Positions 51,030 through 57,086 of a DNA stretch of 64,000 nucleotides are shown one piece after another; the stretch's first letter is position 1, and the number at the start of each line of letters is the position of its first letter. The notes under the pieces are model-generated. The model was not told the origin of the DNA. It did no database searches and saw only the letters and a list, made by a program, of their open reading frames with translations. The position numbers and the translations under genes are program-made. The DNA is from a virus: positions 32,001 through 96,000 of the IMG/VR virus record IMGVR_UViG_3300034358_000044, one strand, 5' to 3'.

Positions 51030-51333
51030 CTACTGCATCGACCATCCTGAGATTCGGTACATGCCGGCGGCCACCGACTGCCTGCCGGACCCGCCTCCCA
51101 GGGAGTGGCCTGTCGAGGCCACGGTGGATGCAACCTGCCCGGCCAACTTCGCCCTGTGCCTACAGGTAGACGCAGGACTGTCCCTGGAGCACAACCTGCT
51201 GGCCCTCAGGCGCTACTCCACAGAGGCCTGGGCCAGGTGTGGGGCTTCCGTCCCTGATGCCGGGGCTGGAGATGCTGGGGTTGCTGGGGCTGTTGATGCT
51301 GGCCGACTGGACGCTGGCTCAGGGGCCCGGTAG
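50977..51333 (+). CDS. o-spanin lipoprotein (Rz1-like)
   Basis: lipobox VSVGC; Pro-rich segment; overlaps the i-spanin 3' end in another frame. Confidence 0.65.
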   Translation: MILSLFVSVSVGCSLCRDYCIDHPEIRYMPAATDCLPDPPPREWPVEATVDATCPANFALCLQVDAGLSLEHNLLALRRYSTEAWARCGASVPDAGAGDAGVAGAVDAGRLDAGSGAR

Positions 51334-51753
51334 AAGGCTGATGGAGCTCGACGAGGAGAGGAAGGGGCTGGCGAAGAGCAGCTCCTCCACCTTCTGAATC
51401 AGCGCAATGCGTCGTAGGGGCTTCTCCATCACCACGGTGGCCCCGGCCTGAACCGCCTCCTGCTGGAGCTGCATGGATCCAGCAGTGATGGCGATGATGG
51501 GGATGGCCCCGAACTCCAGAGTGCCTCTGAGCTTCTTGATGAGCTGGATGCCACTCATCTTGGGCAACATCAGGTCTGTAATGATGAAGCCTGGCTGGAC
51601 CTTCTGGCAGAGATCCCATCCTGCCTCTCCGTCCATCGCCGTGAAGACCTGGTACTGGTCTCCCTCCATCGCGAAGAAGTCAGAAATCATCTTGCCGATG
51701 AGCTCTTCGTCATCGACAACAACCATCTTGAGAGTGGCCGGCTTCTGCGGCAT
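51319..51753 (-). CDS. single-domain response regulator receiver (CheY-like)
   Basis: VVDDE, ITDLMLPKMSG (phospho-Asp), AITA, EKP. Confidence 0.92.
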   Translation of the reverse strand: MPQKPATLKMVVVDDEELIGKMISDFFAMEGDQYQVFTAMDGEAGWDLCQKVQPGFIITDLMLPKMSGIQLIKKLRGTLEFGAIPIIAITAGSMQLQQEAVQAGATVVMEKPLRRIALIQKVEELLFASPFLSSSSSISLLPGP

Positions 51754-51860: not shown

Positions 51861-53492
51861 CTACCCGGTGACGAAGCTGTTCATCACCGTGGGGACGTCA
51901 GTCGAGAAGCCGACCACGTCCAGCATACCGGCATCGTTGGGGTCGGCGATGGTGAACCCGTTGCTCACCATGCCGCAGACGATGAGCTTGGCATCGATGC
52001 CAGTCTCCTGCCGGTACTGACGCAGCGCCTGGAACGGGTGGACCACCCCAGCGTACGTCTCTGAGTCCGTGTAGATCACGAACACGTCCACCTTCAGCTT
52101 CTCCTTGAGAGCGTACTGCATGGGGAGAGAGCAGTCGGTGGTCCCGAAGGGGATGTCCGAGATGGACCTGACCGCCTCGGGGAGCTTCATCTTCGGGGAC
52201 AGCTTGAGGGGCTTCAGCTGCGTCCCGGAGCCCCAGAGCCCGGAGCTGCCGCCGACCCCGAAGCCCACGATGTGGTGCCATGGCTCGGTCCTGGCCGTCA
52301 CCAGCGACATGGCGGCCGAGGCGTCCCTGGGGGTCAGGTTCGAGCCCGCGACGGAGCCGCCCGACATGGACCCCGAGACGTCGAGAGCCAGCAGGTAGCG
52401 CTTGCCGGTGGGCACGATGGTGTCGAAGGCCATGTAGAAGGCCTCGTCCAGCGCATCGACCACGTTGCTGTCGGGATTCCACGACAGGCTGCCCTTGAGG
52501 CCGTGCCCTGAGCTGTAGGTGCTCTGGGCCATCAGCAGGGCCATGGGGTGGATCCTGGCCTTCCTGAGGGCTTCCTTGTCCCCCAGGCGGGCAGCCACGA
52601 AGTGGGAGGCGTCGGAGAGGGGCTTGATGAGGCCGATCTCCGTCATCTTGCCCAGGTTGCGCACCATGGCGGTCAGCGGCATGCCATTGCCCGAGGTCAA
52701 GAGGGCGTCCCAGACCTTGACCGAGTTCAGCATCTGGGTGGGCACGCACTCCCTGGGCAGGTTGTAGTCCGTGATGAGCTGGACCATCTCGGTGTCCTTG
52801 GTGACCACCTTGGCCATCTCGAAGCCCCGGATGAGGGCGGGCACGAGCGGCTGGGCGGACTGCTCCGCCGGCAGCTTGCCGACCGCCCACTGGTAGCTCA
52901 GCTTCTGGACTTCGCTCTTCGGCTTGGGCTTCGCCTTCCGGAGGATGTCCCGGTGCGACCAGCCGTTCCGGCTCTGGTACTTCACCAGGTTGAGGGCGAG
53001 CGAGTCGGGCTGCTGGTTCTCGTACCAGCGGGTGAAGCCCCTCTTGGTGACGCGGCCCCAGCCACCCAGCTCCTTCACCGCCTCCGCCATCTGGAAGAGG
53101 TGAGTCCCGATGCGGCAGACCTGAGGGATGGAAGCCGAGGCCAGACGGCGCGTCTCGACGTCGCCCTCCTTCAACGCCAACGCGAGGGCGAAGATGGCAG
53201 GGTCGTTCTTGGGCGCCTTGCCCCCGCTGCTCACGTCGATGATGAGGTTGATGGCCTTCCCGCCATCTTCCTTGATGCACTCGACGACGCTGGCAGCGTT
53301 CTCCTGGGTCAGCTTCTTCTCCGAGGCGTAGTACGACCCGCCTTCAGAGCCCAGGATGAGGAACCGCTTGAAGCGTGTCCACTTGTCAGCGGCGAAGACG
53401 AAGCCACCTGCGGAGTTCTTCACCTGCGCCATGCCCGGAACCGGTTCGGTCTGGACGGTCTTCTTCGTTGAAACGTGCTTCCCGTAGTTCAT
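51861..53492 (-). CDS. rsr: Ro60/Rsr RNA-binding protein (TROVE + vWA)
   Basis: NSAGGFVF, RFLILGSEGGSYY, KYQSRNGWSHRD, AMVRNLGKM, IHP, MIDAS DVSGSM, GTTDCSLPM, YTDSET, GMLDVVGF; GGGAGG SD. Confidence 0.97.
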   Translation of the reverse strand: MNYGKHVSTKKTVQTEPVPGMAQVKNSAGGFVFAADKWTRFKRFLILGSEGGSYYASEKKLTQENAASVVECIKEDGGKAINLIIDVSSGGKAPKNDPAIFALALALKEGDVETRRLASASIPQVCRIGTHLFQMAEAVKELGGWGRVTKRGFTRWYENQQPDSLALNLVKYQSRNGWSHRDILRKAKPKPKSEVQKLSYQWAVGKLPAEQSAQPLVPALIRGFEMAKVVTKDTEMVQLITDYNLPRECVPTQMLNSVKVWDALLTSGNGMPLTAMVRNLGKMTEIGLIKPLSDASHFVAARLGDKEALRKARIHPMALLMAQSTYSSGHGLKGSLSWNPDSNVVDALDEAFYMAFDTIVPTGKRYLLALDVSGSMSGGSVAGSNLTPRDASAAMSLVTARTEPWHHIVGFGVGGSSGLWGSGTQLKPLKLSPKMKLPEAVRSISDIPFGTTDCSLPMQYALKEKLKVDVFVIYTDSETYAGVVHPFQALRQYRQETGIDAKLIVCGMVSNGFTIADPNDAGMLDVVGFSTDVPTVMNSFVTG

Positions 53493-53565
53493 GTTGCCTC
53501 CCATTCAGCTCGTGAATCCCACGAGCAAGGAACCGCGACTCTGACGGTGAAACGTTCAGCTCCTG
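53493..53565 (-). promoter_or_regulatory. Y-RNA-like Ro60-binding helix in the rsr leader with two alternative pairings
   Basis: CUUGCUCGUG can pair with upstream CAGGAGC-UGAA or downstream CACGAGC-UGAA, which is 1 nt before the SD. Confidence 0.6.
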
Positions 53566-54089
53566 AACGCCTTGGTGTTTCTCTGGGCCGCGAGAGCGAC
53601 CCCTGCTGCAGAAGCGGCCAGATTCAGGGAGGGCCTGACGTTCTCCCTCTCCTGCTCCAAGGCTTCCAGTCTGTTCGAGACGTGGATGAGCTGCTCGGCC
53701 AGGCTCTCGTACTCCTCGCGGGAGACGTAGGATTTCCTTGCCTGCTGCTTCACCAACTCCTTCATCCCCTTGCGGAACTCCTTACCTTGGTCGGAGTTCG
53801 AGAGGGCGGCGAAGAGGATCATGTCGTCTTCGGACCAGACGTGCATGTCGGCCCTGAGATACTTCAACTGAAAGGTCTCTCGGTTCTGCTGGAGAAACGA
53901 AATTGCGCCAATGTCGTTGGCGCAATTGCCGTCGAACTCGTCCCGGTGATTGAGGTAGACGTTCCTGAGGTTTCTCTCAGTGACGCCCAACACACCGGAG
54001 AGAACAGAGCCCGTAGTGAACAGGGTCCCGTCCTCGTCCTCCATCATGGGGACATTCAGATTGTTGAACTGCCAGGTCATCAGTCGCAT
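53556..54089 (-). CDS. phage antirepressor-like DNA-binding protein (ORF6N/Bro-N/KilA-N-like) with coiled coil
   Basis: F-x-TG..LS..LGV...LR...NH.DEF; VWSEDDMI..A..S.S; GGAG SD. Confidence 0.6.
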   Translation of the reverse strand: MRLMTWQFNNLNVPMMEDEDGTLFTTGSVLSGVLGVTERNLRNVYLNHRDEFDGNCANDIGAISFLQQNRETFQLKYLRADMHVWSEDDMILFAALSNSDQGKEFRKGMKELVKQQARKSYVSREEYESLAEQLIHVSNRLEALEQERENVRPSLNLAASAAGVALAAQRNTKAFRS

Positions 54090-54110
54090 GCGTTCTCCTT
54101 CAAGGGGGAT

Positions 54111-54142
54111 AAAAAAAGAGGCCCCCACTCTCATGGGAGCCC
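54111..54142 (-). terminator. intrinsic terminator closing the Y RNA array
   Basis: GGGCTCCC-ATGAGAGT-GGGGGCC followed by TCTTTTTTT, directly after Y4. Confidence 0.75.
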
Positions 54143-54332
54143 ACGGGCAAGACGATGCTGCTCTAGGCGGGAGGTGGACATCCCTTGCGGGTACCTCGTC
54201 CGTTTCCCTACGAGACTCCCAGCAATCAGAGTCTGGGAACTATTCAGTCAAGAGCGCCGGATTGGCGATGCCCTCGAACTTGGCAACTCTCAGCCCAAGC
54301 TCTTTTCGGGTAACCTAGAACCATCAGCCCGC
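54143..54332 (-). ncRNA. Y RNA-like Y4 (190 nt, multi-branched effector domain)
   Basis: GCGGGC-UGAU / CUU-GCCCGU end helix; GUUCUAGG/CCUAGAGC second stem; GGUUAC; internal hairpins including one with GUUCGA. Confidence 0.7.
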
Positions 54333-54342
54333 TTCAAAAGAA

Positions 54343-54428
54343 GAGTGAACAAGAAGTGAAACTCGGTGGGACCCTTTTGATCGGGTCCAGCGTTTTGGGC
54401 TGGAGAACCAAGTCTCTTCGGCTCACTC
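54343..54428 (-). ncRNA. Y RNA-like Y3 (86 nt)
   Basis: GAGUGAGC-CGAA / CUU-GUUCACUC; GAGACUUGGU/ACCGAGUUUC; two apical hairpins. Confidence 0.75.
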
Positions 54429-54435
54429 AAGAAAA

Positions 54436-54501
54436 GTACGAGCAAGGTTGTGAATGACGGAATCTTTTTATGGTAGGTAACCGTCACTCGTCAGCTCGTA
54501 C
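54436..54501 (-). ncRNA. Y RNA-like Y2 (66 nt, minimal)
   Basis: GUACGAGC-UGAC / CUU-GCUCGUAC; GAGUGACGG/CCGUCAUUC; UUACC loop. Confidence 0.75.
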
Positions 54502-54509
54502 AAAGAAAA

Positions 54510-54573
54510 TGGCGAACAAGAATTTAACCAGGGGTATGTTTTCCGTGGATAACCCTAGAGCGTCAGCTCGCCA
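54510..54573 (-). ncRNA. Y RNA-like Y1 (64 nt, minimal)
   Basis: UGGCGAGC-UGAC / CUU-GUUCGCCA; CUAGGG/CCCUGG; UUAUC loop. Confidence 0.72.
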
Positions 54574-54617: not shown

Positions 54618-54648
54618 CTTCTTCGGACTTTTGAATAGCAGTGGTGAA

Positions 54649-54722
54649 CGTCCTCGGTGAGACTCGAACTCACTACCCATTTCTTAGAAGGAAATTGCTC
54701 TATCCAGATGAGCTACGAGGAC
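54649..54722 (-). tRNA. tRNA-Arg(UCU)
   Basis: cloverleaf; anticodon loop CTTCTAA. Confidence 0.92.
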
Positions 54723-54724
54723 AG

Positions 54725-54810
54725 TGGAAGACTGAGGACTCGAACCTCAACCCCTTGCGGAATCGCACGGTTTAGCAAACCGGCCAGGGACCTCCCCTGG
54801 TTAGCCTTCC
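54725..54810 (-). tRNA. tRNA-Ser(GCU)
   Basis: loop TTGCTAA; long variable arm. Confidence 0.9.
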
Positions 54811-54815
54811 AACAG

Positions 54816-54899
54816 CGGAGAGAGGAGGATTCGAACCTCGGCCGACTTGCATCAACCAGCAGCTTTCCAAGCTGCCTCCTGACCATCAGGTCACTCTCC
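54816..54899 (-). tRNA. tRNA-Ser(GGA)
   Basis: loop TTGGAAA; long variable arm. Confidence 0.9.
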
Positions 54900-54903
54900 A
54901 AAG

Positions 54904-54989
54904 CGGAAGACGGAGGTATCGAACCCCACACCCTTACAGGAGCGCACTCGTTTCGAGCGAGGCCTGGTCCCATGACCAGTTCATCTTCC
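54904..54989 (-). tRNA. tRNA-Ser(CGA)
   Basis: loop CTCGAAA; long variable arm. Confidence 0.9.
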
Positions 54990-54992
54990 AAA

Positions 54993-55072
54993 GCTCCCCC
55001 CAGATGCGCCCTGGAGGACCGGCGGGGCCTGTAGGTTCCCTGAGCCCCTAGCTGTCGCCAGTTCGTGAGCTC
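54993..55072 (-). ncRNA. unidentified multi-stem RNA between Ser tRNAs
   Basis: nested stems GAGCU/AGCUU, ACUGGC/GCCGGU, GGGGC/GCCCC, CCAG/CUGG. Confidence 0.4.
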
Positions 55073-55081
55073 AGAGTACAG

Positions 55082-55166
55082 CGGAGGGCGGAGGTATCGA
55101 TCCCCACACCGTTTCGGGTGTCATCAGTTTTCAAGGCTGCGTCGCTTCCCAAGCGATTCACCCTCC
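55082..55166 (-). tRNA. tRNA-Ser(UGA)
   Basis: loop CTTGAAA; long variable arm; 3-bp core anticodon stem. Confidence 0.85.
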
Positions 55167-55711
55167 TAGTCAGATTCCAGCTCCCCGTTCCAGTAGGAGA
55201 CATCCCGGAGCCAGTTCTTCCAGCTTTCCGGCATGCCCTTCCTGAACGTGAAGGTCAGCCTCATCGTGTCCGGCAACTTCTTGGGACGCACCGGAGTAGA
55301 GAACAGCTTCATGCCGGCCTGCTCAGGTGTACGTCCGCCCTTCTTCTGGTTGCAGGGCACGCAAGCGATGACGATGTTCTCCCACCGAGTCTGACCGCCA
55401 TGCGCCCGGGGAACGACATGGTCGTAGGTGGACTCCTGCCTGGGCACCTTGGAGTGGCAGTACTGGCAGCGACCTTGGTCCCTCGTGTAGACGTTCTCAC
55501 GAGAGAACTTGATGGCCCTCTTCTTCCCGATGATGCGCTTCAGGAAGCGAATGACGGAAGGCACCTTGAACTCCAGGGTGACAGAACGGACGGTCCAGTC
55601 CTCGTACTCCTCGACGATCTCGACCTTGTTCTCCCAGAGAAGCGTGATGGCCCGTTGCCAAGGGATCCTGGCCACCGGCTCAAATGATTGCGACAATACC
55701 AGCGTGTCCAT
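55166..55711 (-). CDS. HNH endonuclease (McrA-like)
   Basis: FSRENVYTRDQGRCQYC, TYDHVVPR..GG..WENIVIACVPCN.KK. Confidence 0.92.
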   Translation of the reverse strand: MDTLVLSQSFEPVARIPWQRAITLLWENKVEIVEEYEDWTVRSVTLEFKVPSVIRFLKRIIGKKRAIKFSRENVYTRDQGRCQYCHSKVPRQESTYDHVVPRAHGGQTRWENIVIACVPCNQKKGGRTPEQAGMKLFSTPVRPKKLPDTMRLTFTFRKGMPESWKNWLRDVSYWNGELESD

Positions 55712-55738
55712 GACCAGCCTCCTTTGACTACGAGTGTG

Positions 55739-55817
55739 TGCCCCAGGAGGGAATCGAACCCTCATGCCGAAGCAGTGGATTTTGAATCCACCGTGTCTAC
55801 CGTTCCACCACCGGGGC
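55739..55817 (-). tRNA. tRNA-Leu(CAA)
   Basis: loop TTCAAAA. Confidence 0.92.
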
Positions 55818-55823
55818 CCTACT

Positions 55824-55905
55824 TGGATGAAGAGGGACTCGAACCCTCATGAGCAAGCTCGCCGGCTTCTAGGGCCGGAGTGTCTACCAGTTCCACCATT
55901 CATCC
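55824..55905 (-). tRNA. tRNA-Leu(UAG)
   Basis: loop CCTAGAA. Confidence 0.88.
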
Positions 55906-55908
55906 ATG

Positions 55909-55991
55909 TGATCGAGAAGGGACTTGAACCCTTACGGTGTTACCCGCCTGCCCCTCAAGCAGGTGCGTCTACCAATTTCCGCCACTCGATC
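55909..55991 (-). tRNA. tRNA-Leu(GAG)
   Basis: loop TTGAGGG. Confidence 0.92.
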
Positions 55992-55995
55992 AATG

Positions 55996-56078
55996 TGCCC
56001 AGAGCGAGAATCGAACTCGCACGGTTTTACCCGCCAGACTCTGAATCTGGTGCGTCTACCAAGTTTCGCCACCTGGGC
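55996..56078 (-). tRNA. tRNA-Leu(CAG)
   Basis: loop TTCAGAG. Confidence 0.92.
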
Positions 56079-56083
56079 AACTG

Positions 56084-56155
56084 TACTGGCAGAGGGATTC
56101 GGACCCCCGACATCTTGGGTGTAGGCCAAGCGCTCTACCTCTGAGCTATGCCAGC
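56084..56155 (-). tRNA. tRNA-Val(UAC)
   Basis: loop CCTACAC; T-loop TCCGAAT. Confidence 0.88.
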
Positions 56156-56217
56156 ATGTTGAGGACTTGGTAGCGCAAGTTGCCTCTGAACCTCTTCCCT
56201 TTCGGGTGCTACGGGTG

Positions 56218-56288
56218 TCGTGAGTGACAGAGTTGAACTGTCCTTCCAGGCTTATGAGGCCCGTGTCTTACCGATAGACGAACTCACG
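56218..56288 (-). tRNA. tRNA-Met(CAU), probably elongator
   Basis: loop CTCATAA; C1:G72 paired. Confidence 0.8.
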
Positions 56289-56297
56289 TACTGCACA

Positions 56298-56371
<74 letters not shown>

Positions 56372-56372
56372 A

Positions 56373-56445
56373 CGCTCTTGGAGGGATTCGAACCCCCGAC
56401 TTCCTCTTTAGGAAAGAGGCGGTCTATCCACTGACGTACAAGAGC
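56373..56445 (-). tRNA. tRNA-Arg(CCU)
   Basis: loop TTCCTAA. Confidence 0.92.
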
Positions 56446-56450
56446 AACAG

Positions 56451-56522
56451 CGCCCTGCCGAGGAGTTGAACCTCGCACTATCCCAGGTTCGTAGCCTGAG
56501 GTCTGGATCCGCCAGGCAGGGC
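56451..56522 (-). tRNA. tRNA-Arg(ACG), non-canonical D-arm
   Basis: loop CTACGAA; D-stem abuts acceptor; D-loop CGGAT. Confidence 0.75.
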
Positions 56523-56525
56523 ATG

Positions 56526-56594
56526 AGCCCTATCGGAGAGTTGAACTCCATCTTTCGCCTTCGGAGGGCGAAGTCCAGATCCGCTGGATAGGGC
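56526..56594 (-). tRNA. tRNA-Arg(CCG), non-canonical D-arm
   Basis: loop CTCCGAA; D-stem abuts acceptor; D-loop CGGAT. Confidence 0.75.
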
Positions 56595-56792
56595 CTACTT
56601 CTTTCTACTTCTCGGAGAGGCTCTTGGTTTGGGGACCAGAGTAGGCCCGTCGTAGCCGATACCGGCTTCCAAGAGGCGCTCCAGACGCATCCATTTCTCT
56701 CTGTCGTAGCCGTCTGTTCCGACGTCACGAGTCCAAAGCTCGTGGAAGAGCACTCGTGCTTCTGCCTTCTCTTCTTTTTTCAAGCGGTGCAT
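56595..56792 (-). CDS. small hypothetical protein
   Basis: 65-aa ORF exactly filling the gap between tRNAs. Confidence 0.55.
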   Translation of the reverse strand: MHRLKKEEKAEARVLFHELWTRDVGTDGYDREKWMRLERLLEAGIGYDGPTLVPKPRASPRSRKK

Positions 56793-56795
56793 GAG

Positions 56796-56867
56796 TGCTC
56801 CCGATGGGAATCGAACCCAATGCCTCGTCCTTACCAAGGACGTGCTCTGCCGTAGAGCTACAGGAGC
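56796..56867 (-). tRNA. tRNA-Thr(GGU)
   Basis: loop TTGGTAA. Confidence 0.92.
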
Positions 56868-57086
56868 GTACTACAGGTAGCTGACACACTTGCCTTTGGG
56901 AGGTGGTGGTCCGTCTGGTGTTCTGCCCCGTGCCATGGATGGCATCCGAACTCCGTGCTTTGTTCGGCGTCGTCTTTTCCCGTGTGTCGGAAGGTGAGGT
57001 GCATCACGTACTTCCTCCCCTGGATCCACCGGGGAGGCGTCTGTATGAGCCGTGGGCACGCCTCACTTGCTACTAGTCCGGCTACC

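What the first reader, a model, noticed from the sequence alone, without database searches (positions are those of the whole stretch)
53493..53565. Ro60 mRNA leader carries a Y-RNA-like bulged helix in two mutually exclusive forms: candidate Ro60 autoregulatory switch
Seen (minus strand): CAGGAGC-UGAA...CUU-GCUCGUG-GGAUU-CACGAGC-UGAA-U-GGGAGG-CAAC-AUG. The strand CUUGCUCGUG (53520-53529) is the same CUU-GYYC half found in all six Y RNAs. It can pair with upstream GAGC-UGAA (53555-53565, spanning the stop codon of the preceding ORF) in the normal orientation. Alternatively it pairs with the downstream CACGAGC-UGAA (53504-53514) in a circularly permuted 7-bp hairpin whose UGAA ends 1 nt before the SD. 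Established: Ro60 binds the bulged terminal helix of Y RNAs. Inference: free Ro60 binds its own leader and blocks the ribosome, so Ro60 output tracks the Y RNA pool. Translation of the upstream ORF could tip the switch. I know of no description of such a switch.
Basis: partly seen in the sequence, partly recalled or inferred. Interest (0 to 1): 0.88.

Follow-up and report, generated by a model that had tools for sequence, protein, structure and literature searches.

The report
Y-RNA mimic hairpin before Ro60 gene
Just ahead of a phage's gene for the RNA-binding protein Ro60 sits a small, strongly conserved hairpin that copies, in reversed strand order, the stem by which Ro60 grips its partner Y RNAs and touches the ribosome-binding site, so Ro60 probably limits its own synthesis; the proposed two-form switch with an upstream copy is not supported.

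Summary
The sequence is as described. On the minus strand, CUU-GCUCGUG-GGAUU-CACGAGC-UGAA (53529-53504) ends 1 nt before the rsr Shine-Dalgarno. It copies the GRRC-YGA / CUU-GYYC helix of six Y-RNA-like modules in the window.

The hairpin is conserved. All 7 relatives with readable DNA (Ro60 62-66% identical) keep it, one with a compensatory G:C to A:U change. In 223 unrelated Ro60 loci from phages, metagenomes and bacterial genomes, 24 have such a hairpin in the last 60 nt before rsr (0.43 expected). It usually ends 12-16 nt from the start codon. All 9 exact matches in IMG/VR lie just upstream of a Ro60 gene. The 3' arm and flank carry the published Rsr-recognition motif GNCGAAN0-1G.

The "normal-orientation" form is not supported. 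It is only 4 bp, has about zero ensemble probability and costs +14.6 kcal/mol. Its upstream strand and the upstream ORF are missing in relatives.

Best reading (confidence about 0.5): a translational operator that mimics the Ro60 target, with Y RNAs as competitors. Binding and regulation are untested. I found no published description. This scan noted the same idea earlier on other genomes.

The parts
53527..53529 (-). CUU, the 5' flank of the hairpin. It matches the CUU that precedes the 3' strand of the terminal helix in all six Y modules. UU can pair with the GA of UGA, leaving the U bulged.
   Evidence: invariant in alignments A2, A3 and A5
53508..53526 (-). Hairpin H2: GCUCGUG (53526-53520), loop GGAUU (53519-53515), CACGAGC (53514-53508). 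It is a circularly permuted copy of the Y-RNA terminal helix. The arms with their flanks, CCUUGCUCGU and ACGAGCUGA, are identical to those of Y2.
   Evidence: pair probability 0.99; conserved in L004-L008, L261 and L262 with a compensatory change in L007; covariation in distal pairs
53504..53507 (-). UGAA, the 3' flank. With the preceding GC it reads GCUGAA. This is the phage's own U variant of the published Rsr-recognition motif GNCGAAN0-1G.
   Evidence: G-A-A invariant in A2 (one relative, L261, has UGC)
53497..53502 (-). Shine-Dalgarno GGGAGG, 1 nt after UGAA and 4 nt before the AUG. In the predicted fold GGGA pairs with UUCC at 53531-53528.
   Evidence: unpaired probability 0.18-0.46
51861..53492 (-). 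rsr / Ro60 gene (543 aa; TROVE plus Ro60 vWA domains). The start is taken as AUG 53492. An in-frame AUG at 53504 has no SD.
53532..53548 (-). Hairpin H1: ACCG-UCAGAGUCG-CGGU, 2 nt upstream of CUU. Relatives have a hairpin with a different, covarying sequence at the same place (GCUGAG/CUCAGC, GCUGGG/CCCAGC, ACCGAG/CUCGGU, GCCGAG/CUCGGC).
53556..53562 (-). UGA is the stop codon of the upstream ORF. It is not conserved and not predicted to pair with 53526-53523.
53551..53572 (-). Local hairpin AGGCGUUCAG-GAG-CUGAACGUUU around the stop codon. It holds the upstream GAGCUGA.
53556..54089 (-). Upstream ORF, probably starting at AUG 54089 behind GAAGGAG (the longest frame starts at 54134, inside the Y4 terminator). 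It gives a weak anti-repressor-like match. Relatives have no same-strand gene here.
   Evidence: GC3 0.79
54143..54572 (-). Tandem Y-RNA-like modules Y1-Y4 (54572-54511, 54500-54437, 54427-54344, 54332-54143). An intrinsic terminator follows at 54142-54110.
57819..57944 (-). Y5, a YrlA-type module with T-arm-like and D-arm-like hairpins inside the tRNA array.
60344..60476 (-). Y6, a second YrlA-type module inside the tRNA array.

Best explanation
The hairpin CUU-GCUCGUG-GGAUU-CACGAGC-UGAA is a conserved cis-acting element of the rsr mRNA leader. It presents the Ro60-binding module of Y RNAs (a helix closed by G-C, a bulged pyrimidine, then GAA opposite UU) in circularly permuted form. A loop closes the end where a Y RNA has its 5' and 3' termini, and the bulge side opens directly onto the Shine-Dalgarno sequence.

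Proposed mechanism: Ro60 that is not occupied by Y RNAs binds this mimic. It blocks or locks away the SD, which starts 0-4 nt after GAA, so 30S subunits cannot load and Ro60 synthesis falls. Abundant Y RNAs titrate Ro60 away and relieve the block, so Ro60 output follows the Y-RNA pool. In the window's clade the stem can extend past the CUU/UGAA internal loop into a short 'upper stem' that contains SD bases. That gives a Y-like stem-bulge-stem which Ro60 binding would stabilise.

Shown here: the sequence, its likeness to the genome's own Y modules, its conservation with covariation, and its position-specific enrichment at rsr starts in many phages and bacteria.

Inferred: that Ro60 binds it, that binding represses translation, and that Y RNAs compete.
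For: (1) Likeness to the cognate Y RNAs. All six Y modules share RRGC-YGA / CUU-GYY. The leader's CCUUGCUCGU and ACGAGCUGA are identical to Y2's strands.
(2) The 3' arm and flank match the published Rsr-recognition motif GNCGAAN0-1G. That motif resembles the GGUCCGA contacted by Xenopus Ro60 (Chen et al. 2014, PMC4201824).
(3) Close relatives were found by protein similarity alone (Ro60 62-66% identical, CDS about 70-73% nt identical, upstream DNA about 50-57%). All 7 with readable DNA keep the hairpin next to the SD, and L007 has a compensatory GCUCAUG/CAUGAGC.
(4) Unbiased sample of 223 unique Ro60 loci: 24 have UU-G...(at least 5 perfect bp)...C-YGA in the 60 nt before the start, against 0.43 expected (56-fold, Poisson P about 2e-33). 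The YGA end lies 12-16 nt from the start in 19 of 24.
(5) All 9 exact matches to CTTGCTCRTG-N3-6-CAYGAGCYGAA among 2.9 million IMG/VR contigs lie just upstream of a Ro60 gene on the same strand.
(6) The proximal pairs G-C, C-G and C-G never vary, while three distal pairs covary. 99.7% of cells are paired, and 28 have double changes against 6.7 in shuffles (this alignment was fitted to the model).
(7) The leader's proximal 4-mer (GAGC or GGGC) matches a Y module of the same locus in 74% of loci, against 42% for other loci.
(8) A phage Ro60 binds a stem-bulge(CGAA)-stem RNA taken from the non-coding region upstream of its own gene, with KD about 17 nM (Thermus phage phiLo, PMC12135203).
(9) In the own genome the leader model hits only this site strongly.
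Against: No binding, toeprint, reporter or RNA data exist for this or any related leader.

The strict form of the element occurs in only about 11-20% of sampled rsr loci. It is missing in several named phages: Phosso, Sixama, TinyTim, Cashline and Sparky.

One close relative (L261) has UGC instead of UGA.

CCUU is also complementary to AAGG/GAGG of the SD. Part of the conservation could therefore reflect plain SD sequestration without Ro60.

Permuted hairpins of the same kind arise passively at junctions of tandem Y RNAs. The element could have started, and in some genomes remained, as such a by-product.

The direction of any regulation (repression or stabilisation) is not known.

The covariation counts come partly from stem-selected or model-fitted alignments.
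Confidence: 0.5

Rival explanations
1. Ro60 binds the leader hairpin, but the effect is not repression. Binding might protect or mark the 5' end of the rsr mRNA after it is cut from a Y-RNA/tRNA precursor. It might load new Ro60 in cis, or recruit a nuclease. The outcome would be mRNA stabilisation, processing or decay rather than ribosome exclusion.
For: The mimicry evidence is the same as for the best explanation. In relatives the leader starts only about 35 nt after the terminator of the Y4-like RNA, so rsr may be made by read-through and processing. In Microbacterium phage A3Wally the hairpin lies at the predicted 5' end of the transcript, behind TTGACA-17-TAAGCT. M. smegmatis Y RNAs are processed from one precursor upstream of rsr (PMC4201824).
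Against: The tight and constant spacing to the SD and start codon (12-16 nt) is what a translational operator needs. A 5'-end stabiliser or a processing mark does not need it.
Confidence: 0.17
2. The hairpin is a Ro60-independent structural element. CCUU acts as an anti-SD, and the stem acts as a spacer or clamp. It sets a low basal translation rate, or acts as an RNA thermometer or stabiliser. The likeness to Y RNAs is an evolutionary leftover.
For: CCUU can pair with AAGG/GAGG of the SD. Predicted folds in the window and relatives pair SD bases with the 5' flank. Junctions of tandem Y RNAs give the same hairpin shape with no SD nearby.
Against: Plain sequestration does not explain three things: the invariance of G-C/C-G/C-G next to the bulge, the invariance of Y-GAA directly after the stem, and the tracking of the genome's own Y-stem type. 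True Y modules carry the same YCUU with no SD involved.
Confidence: 0.15
3. CUU-GCUCGUG alternates between pairing with the upstream GAGC-UGA (normal Y orientation) and with the downstream CACGAGC-UGA (permuted). Translation of the upstream ORF through its stop codon tips the balance.
For: Both GAGCUGA copies and the CUUGCUC strand exist in the window. The oriented pair GAGCYGA...CUUGYUC is otherwise typical of the Y modules.
Against: Form A has 4 bp, about zero ensemble probability and a +14.6 kcal/mol penalty. The upstream strand is held in another hairpin. Neither the upstream GAGC-UGA nor the ORF is present in relatives, which keep only the permuted hairpin. In the jumbo-phage clade, an apparent upstream 5' strand in three contigs coincides with a likely -10 promoter region and is missing in other members.
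Confidence: 0.03
4. A non-functional relic: the decayed junction of two former tandem Y RNAs that happens to lie before rsr.
For: The window's Y2/Y3 junction and junctions in other loci score with the leader model.
Against: The hairpin block is fully conserved where the surrounding non-coding DNA cannot be aligned. There is a compensatory change (L007). Enrichment is 56-fold at a fixed distance from the start, across phyla.
Confidence: 0.05

Closest known systems
Ro60/Rsr-binding stem of bacterial and phage Y RNAs (YrlA/YrlB, D. radiodurans Yrn1/Yrn2; motif GNCGAAN0-1G; Rfam RF02553; Chen et al. 2014, PMC4201824)
   Same: The helix core is the same (G-R-R-C closed by G-C). There is a bulged pyrimidine and GAA on one strand, and (C)UU-G-Y-Y-C on the other. 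It lies on the same strand as rsr and next to it. Its sequence is almost identical to the window's own Y2 stem.
   Different: The strand order is reversed. A 4-5 nt loop closes the end where a Y RNA has its termini, and the bulge side is open. There is no effector-binding or tRNA-like module. It is part of an mRNA leader that abuts the SD, not a free small RNA. It does not score with the Rfam YrlA model.
Autogenous translational control by target mimicry (my own knowledge, not checked here: E. coli ribosomal proteins L1, S8, S15 and L20 on their operons; ThrRS operator mimicking tRNA-Thr; archaeal L7Ae k-turn in its own 5' UTR; MS2 coat-protein operator hairpin)
   Same: A small copy of the protein's main RNA ligand sits at the ribosome-binding site of the protein's own mRNA. 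The free ligand (here Y RNA) would compete, which couples protein synthesis to ligand supply.
   Different: The protein family (Ro60/TROVE) and the ligand (Y RNA) have not been reported to use this logic. The mimic is circularly permuted. Binding and repression are not shown.
Thermus phage phiLo Yrl1/Yrl2 (PMC12135203)
   Same: These are stem-bulge(CGAA)-stem RNAs from the non-coding region upstream of a phage Ro60 gene, and the phage Ro60 binds them with nanomolar affinity in vitro.
   Different: They are described as free Y-RNA-like molecules that form RYPER-like complexes with PNPase. The paper does not mention a relation to the ribosome-binding site or autoregulation (the terms 'autoregul', 'own mRNA' and 'leader' have 0 occurrences). 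The phiLo sequence itself was not examined here.

Membership tests
Y RNA (YrlA-type / Ro60-associated small RNA) | Conserved Ro60-recognition motif near the 5' strand of the stem (GNCGAAN0-1G; GGUCCGA in animals) | tested here: met
   The leader reads GC-U-GAA-U-G. It has U at the bulged position, as do this phage's Y1, Y2, Y4 and Y6. Other clades have GCCGAA.
Y RNA (YrlA-type / Ro60-associated small RNA) | [quoted passage not shown] | tested here: not met
   The stem is a local 7-bp hairpin closed by a 5-nt loop, in permuted strand order, with no internal module. There is no Rfam YrlA match at the leader.
Y RNA (YrlA-type / Ro60-associated small RNA) | Encoded close to rsr on the same strand | tested here: met
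   It lies 12 nt upstream of the rsr AUG on the same strand.
Y RNA (YrlA-type / Ro60-associated small RNA) | Bound by Ro60 in vivo or in vitro | not testable with these tools
   The available tools include no RNA-protein binding or RNA-protein modelling.
Autogenous translational operator (target mimicry) | The site resembles the protein's primary RNA target | tested here: met
   The arms and flanks are identical to Y2, the core is shared with all six Y modules, and the site tracks the own-genome stem type.
Autogenous translational operator (target mimicry) | The site overlaps or abuts the ribosome-binding site of the protein's own mRNA, and this is conserved | tested here: met
   UGAA ends 1 nt before the SD. 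In 19 of 24 loci the YGA end is 12-16 nt from the start. Enrichment is 56-fold.
Autogenous translational operator (target mimicry) | The protein binds the site, and expression responds to the levels of protein and ligand | not testable with these tools
   This needs EMSA, toeprinting or reporter assays. No RNA sequencing run holding this phage is listed.
Intrinsic terminator / attenuator | G+C-rich hairpin followed by a U-run | tested here: not met
   The hairpin is followed by GAAUGGGAGG. The terminator scan lists no minus-strand site at 53504-53529.
Two-state RNA switch as proposed (form A / form B) | Two alternative pairings of comparable stability, both conserved | tested here: not met
   Form A has P about 0 and costs +14.6 kcal/mol. 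Its 5' strand is absent in relatives.

The most novel reading that the evidence does not exclude
A Y-RNA-mimicking operator at the rsr ribosome-binding site is a widespread way of setting the Ro60 : Y-RNA ratio, present in phages and in several bacterial phyla (Armatimonadota, Myxococcota, Chloroflexota). In the window's clade it is part of a three-element leader. Hairpin H1 and an SD-containing 'upper stem' exclude each other, and Ro60 binding locks the SD-sequestered, Y-like stem-bulge-stem. A phage could thereby tune its Ro60 output to the load of Y RNAs, and perhaps of misfolded RNAs, in the infected cell.
Probability: 0.3. Interest if true: 0.8.

Novelty: new variant of a known kind. Interest (0 to 1): 0.65.

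Why it matters
Ro60 and Y RNAs are studied from bacteria to humans, where Ro60 is a lupus and Sjogren autoantigen. How cells or phages match Ro60 supply to Y-RNA supply is not known. My searches of the held literature found no report of Ro60 regulating its own mRNA.

A conserved cis copy of the Ro60 docking site on the rsr ribosome-binding site gives a simple, testable feedback circuit. It is also a minimal natural hairpin, about 25 nt, for studying how Ro60 recognises RNA. Because the strand order is permuted, it shows which parts of the Y stem matter: the G-C-closed helix, the bulged pyrimidine, GAA and UU, but not the free termini.

Two cultured phages carry the element, so bench tests are practical: Microbacterium phage A3Wally and Streptomyces phage Gilson.

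Tried and rejected
- Near and distant DNA searches of the locus and of the leader alone against 50,697 named phage genomes found no match.
- Rfam at gathering and permissive thresholds found nothing at the leader. Rfam also found nothing on five jumbo-phage loci.
- Sequencing runs: no RNA holder is listed. Only peat-metagenome DNA contigs hold the stretch. Laying four of those runs showed no differing letters and no joints, so they add nothing.
- Two relatives (P0002, P0020) and two more (P0009, P0016) could not be read because no DNA was available.
- Form A pairing is rejected on energy and conservation.
- In jumbo-phage clade 2 I considered that an upstream GUGAGC-CGA strand makes a complete normal-orientation Y RNA sharing the 3' strand with the leader hairpin. 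I rejected this. The strand is seen in only three contigs, overlaps a likely -10 element (TAAGCT), and is absent in L175, L177 and L178, which instead show TTGAC-17-TA.... promoters.
- The opposite-strand ORF 53475-54359 as the real gene is rejected. Its GC3 is 0.55 against 0.79 for the minus-strand ORF, and it has no family match. The upstream ORFs called in relatives are unrelated to either frame.
- Named phages without a clean element: Phosso, Sixama, TinyTim, Cashline, Sparky. Birchlyn and Jay2Jay have only a degenerate CGG variant.
- My first pattern for the recognition motif was mis-specified and undercounted. I corrected it.
- The per-locus 'core identity' figures used imprecise slices and are not used. 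The CDS and upstream identities from that call are used.

Full report
**Context.** The window is bases 32001-96000 of a 195.7-kb IMG/VR phage record with 58.6% G+C. DNA contigs from peat metagenomes hold it. On the minus strand it carries an array of 41 tRNA genes and, downstream of it, a 543-aa Ro60/Rsr gene at 53492-51861. That gene has TROVE and Ro60-vWA domains and matches solved Ro60 structures at E 1e-116 to 1e-123. No named phage is close at the DNA level. Ro60 proteins of cultured phages are at most 45% identical.

**The observation.**
- The hairpin region reads CUU (53529-53527), GCUCGUG (53526-53520), GGAUU, CACGAGC (53514-53508), UGAA (53507-53504).
- Then come one U, the SD GGGAGG (53502-53497) and the AUG at 53492.
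- A second GAGC-UGA lies at 53562-53556. Its UGA is the stop codon of the preceding ORF.

The "six Y RNAs" are real as sequence modules: Y1-Y4 in tandem at 54572-54143, and Y5 (57944-57819) and Y6 (60476-60344) inside the tRNA array.
- Each closes with a 6-7-bp terminal helix that ends RRGC, followed by YGA on the 5' strand. CUU-GYY begins the 3' strand.
- Y5 matches Rfam YrlA at 36 bits, below the gathering score of 69. Y5 and Y6 contain T-arm-like and D-arm-like hairpins.
- The motif reads like the animal Ro60 site GGUC-C-GA / UU-GACC. It also reads like the bacterial motif GNCGAAN0-1G that Chen et al. proposed for Rsr recognition (PMC4201824).
- The leader's CCUUGCUCGU and ACGAGCUGA are letter-for-letter the two strands of Y2, joined by a loop in the opposite order.

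**Is it more than chance?** The separate 7-mers are common. GAGCYGA occurs 90 times in the genome, and CTTGYYC occurs 63 times in the window against 45 expected. The 96-nt stretch as a whole does not fold better than shuffles (z = -1.1). The case therefore rests on comparison with other genomes.

**Close relatives.** Relatives were found by protein similarity only, with Ro60 62-66% identical. They share synteny: rsr, then a receiver-domain gene, then a large opposite-strand gene.
- All seven with readable DNA carry ...CCUU-GCUCRUG-(4-nt loop)-CAYGAGC-UGAAG-SD...AUG.
- The CDS is only 69-73% nt identical, and the DNA further upstream is effectively unalignable at 50-57% identity.
- L007 has the compensatory pair GCUCAUG/CAUGAGC. 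L261 has a shorter stem and UGC instead of UGA.

**Unrelated rsr loci.** I took 223 unique Ro60 loci from viral contigs, metagenomes and GTDB genomes, chosen by protein patterns.
- A strict search for UU-G...(at least 5 perfect pairs, loop 3-9)...C-YGA found 24 hits in the 60 nt before rsr. It found 76 hits in the other 2.36 Mb.
- That is 56-fold enrichment, with 0.43 hits expected (Poisson P about 2e-33).
- The YGA end lies 12-16 nt from the start codon in 19 of the 24 (earlier versions).
- All nine exact matches to the window-type hairpin among 2.9 million IMG/VR contigs lie just upstream of a Ro60 gene on the same strand.
- In the phage's own genome, a covariance model of the leader hits only this site strongly (51 bits). 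The next hit is the Y2/Y3 junction at 17 bits.

**Pattern of conservation.**
- Stems differ between lineages: GCUCGUG, GCUCAUG, GCCCGAG, GUCCGA, GCCCC, GCUCGC, GCUCAC, GCUCC and others.
- Across them, (C)UU, the three proximal pairs G-C, C-G and C-G, and Y-GAA are constant. Three distal pairs covary (UA/CG 25:11; GC/AU/CG/GU; UA/CG/GC/AU). 99.7% of cells are paired (this alignment was fitted to the model, so it leans toward pairing).
- A fixed recognition core with a free distal stem is what a protein-recognised helix should show.
- The leader's proximal 4-mer follows the Y modules of its own locus (74% against 42%). This figure is not corrected for relatedness.
- On a Ro60 tree the strict element is present in 6/6 of the window clade, 8/8 of a jumbo-phage clade and most of an Armatimonadota clade. 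It is scattered in Myxococcota and elsewhere.
- A Verrucomicrobiota clade has a different leader that also places GCCGAA near the SD.
- Two cultured phages carry the element, Microbacterium phage A3Wally and Streptomyces phage Gilson. Several others do not.

**The proposed switch.** The "normal orientation" form is GAGC/GCUC only.
- Its pairs have about zero probability in the ensemble. Forcing them costs 14.6 kcal/mol. The permuted hairpin has probability 0.99.
- The upstream GAGCUGA lies in a separate hairpin around the stop codon.
- Neither that strand nor the upstream ORF exists in relatives. There, the Y4-like RNA and its terminator lie about 35 nt upstream of the leader.
- The ORF is probably real (GC3 0.79; SD-preceded AUG at 54089; weak anti-repressor-like match). 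It appears to be an insertion specific to this phage.
- An apparent upstream 5' strand in some jumbo-phage contigs coincides with a likely -10 element and is not conserved.
- The two-form switch, and its coupling to upstream translation, are therefore not supported.

**What the leader does contain in this clade.** There is a second hairpin, H1 (window 53548-53532), 2 nt upstream of CUU. Its sequence varies with compensatory changes between relatives. In four relatives the minimum-energy fold extends the Ro-like hairpin, across the CUU/UGAA internal loop, into CAC/GUG and CCUC/GGGG. This sequesters the SD in a Y-like upper stem that excludes H1. In the window, UUCC pairs with GGGA of the SD. 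This alternative is predicted, not shown.

**Mechanism.** The best-supported reading is autogenous control by target mimicry.
- Free Ro60 binds the permuted Y-stem at its own ribosome-binding site and hinders initiation. Y RNAs compete.
- A phage Ro60 does bind a stem-bulge(CGAA)-stem RNA taken from upstream of its own gene, with KD about 17 nM (PMC12135203). That paper treats the RNAs as free Y-like RNAs.
- I put the confidence near 0.9 that the element is functional and tied to the rsr start, about 0.65 that Ro60 binds it, and about 0.5 for negative translational feedback.
- The rivals are: Ro60 binding with another outcome such as stabilisation or processing; Ro60-independent SD sequestration, since CCUU is also an anti-SD; and a junction relic, since tandem Y RNAs form the same hairpin passively.

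**Novelty.**
- Searches of the held literature found no report of Ro60 autoregulation or of a Y-like operator in an rsr leader. One review could not be read.
- The principle itself is classical; examples from my own knowledge, not checked here, are ribosomal proteins, ThrRS, L7Ae and the MS2 coat protein. New here are the protein family, the ligand and the permuted topology.
- Earlier notes of this scan describe the same idea on other genomes: cyanobacteria, Bacillus, other phages and an archaeon. I used them only as context.

Noticed in passing
window 54648-63307 (minus strand): An array of 41 tRNA genes covers most anticodon families. Three long-variable-arm tRNAs at 54724-54990 include one that ARAGORN cannot assign (54724-54810). 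Rfam scores all three as tRNA-Sec-like, below threshold.
   Followed up: no
window 54143-54332 (minus strand): Y4 is a 190-nt module with the same Ro-type terminal helix but a large multi-branched interior. An intrinsic terminator follows at 54142-54110. Relatives have a Y4-like 3' end and terminator at the same position relative to rsr.
   Followed up: partly
window 54404-54452 (minus strand); L067:1266-1306, L013:1887-1934, L011:2437-2475, L045:4968-5008, L040:2285-2325: At junctions of tandem Y RNAs, the 3' strand of one and the 5' strand of the next form the same permuted hairpin (CCUU-GCCCGG-loop-CGGGC-CGAAGG...). This is a plausible evolutionary origin of the leader element.
   Followed up: partly
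window 51319-51753 (minus strand); L005:5767-6159, L007:3087-3479, L261:3328-3726: A stand-alone response-regulator receiver-domain gene directly follows rsr in this phage and in several relatives. This is a conserved Ro60 + REC gene pair of unknown meaning.
   Followed up: no
window 53556-54089 (minus strand): An anti-repressor-like ORF (weak phrog_5060 and BMFP matches) lies between the Y4 terminator and the rsr leader. Relatives lack a same-strand gene there, so it is probably a recent insertion.
   Followed up: partly
L010, L017, L033, L038, L039, L055 (rsr leaders, Verrucomicrobiota-type Ro60 clade): A different conserved leader reads CCAACUUG(Y)CCGC, about 20 nt, GCCGAA-AGUUGG-CGGCGC, then the SD. 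CCAACUU can pair with AGUUGG, so the CUUG and GCCGAA motifs face each other in an internal loop. This may be a second way to present a Ro60 site in the rsr leader.
   Followed up: no
L172-L180 (jumbo-phage contigs up to 465 kb), about 100 nt upstream of rsr: The 5' UTR is highly conserved. It runs from a likely promoter (TTGAC-17-TAAG..) through a variable hairpin, a conserved UAGAUCGAA, a covarying hairpin with loop (N)AUGUCAG and AACCUU, to the Ro-like hairpin, CGAA and the SD. The conserved loops suggest more structure or more partners than the Ro-like hairpin alone.
   Followed up: partly
L269 (Microbacterium phage A3Wally MZ150783.1) and L268 (Streptomyces phage Gilson MK061412.1), last 60 nt before the Ro-like gene: Two cultured phages carry the element. 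A3Wally has GAU-GCUCGU-UAAAGGG-ACGAGC-CGAAG-AAAGGA behind TTGACA-17-TAAGCT. Gilson has UAU-GCCCA-GAA-UGGGC-CGAA-AGGA. Both are usable as test systems.
   Followed up: partly
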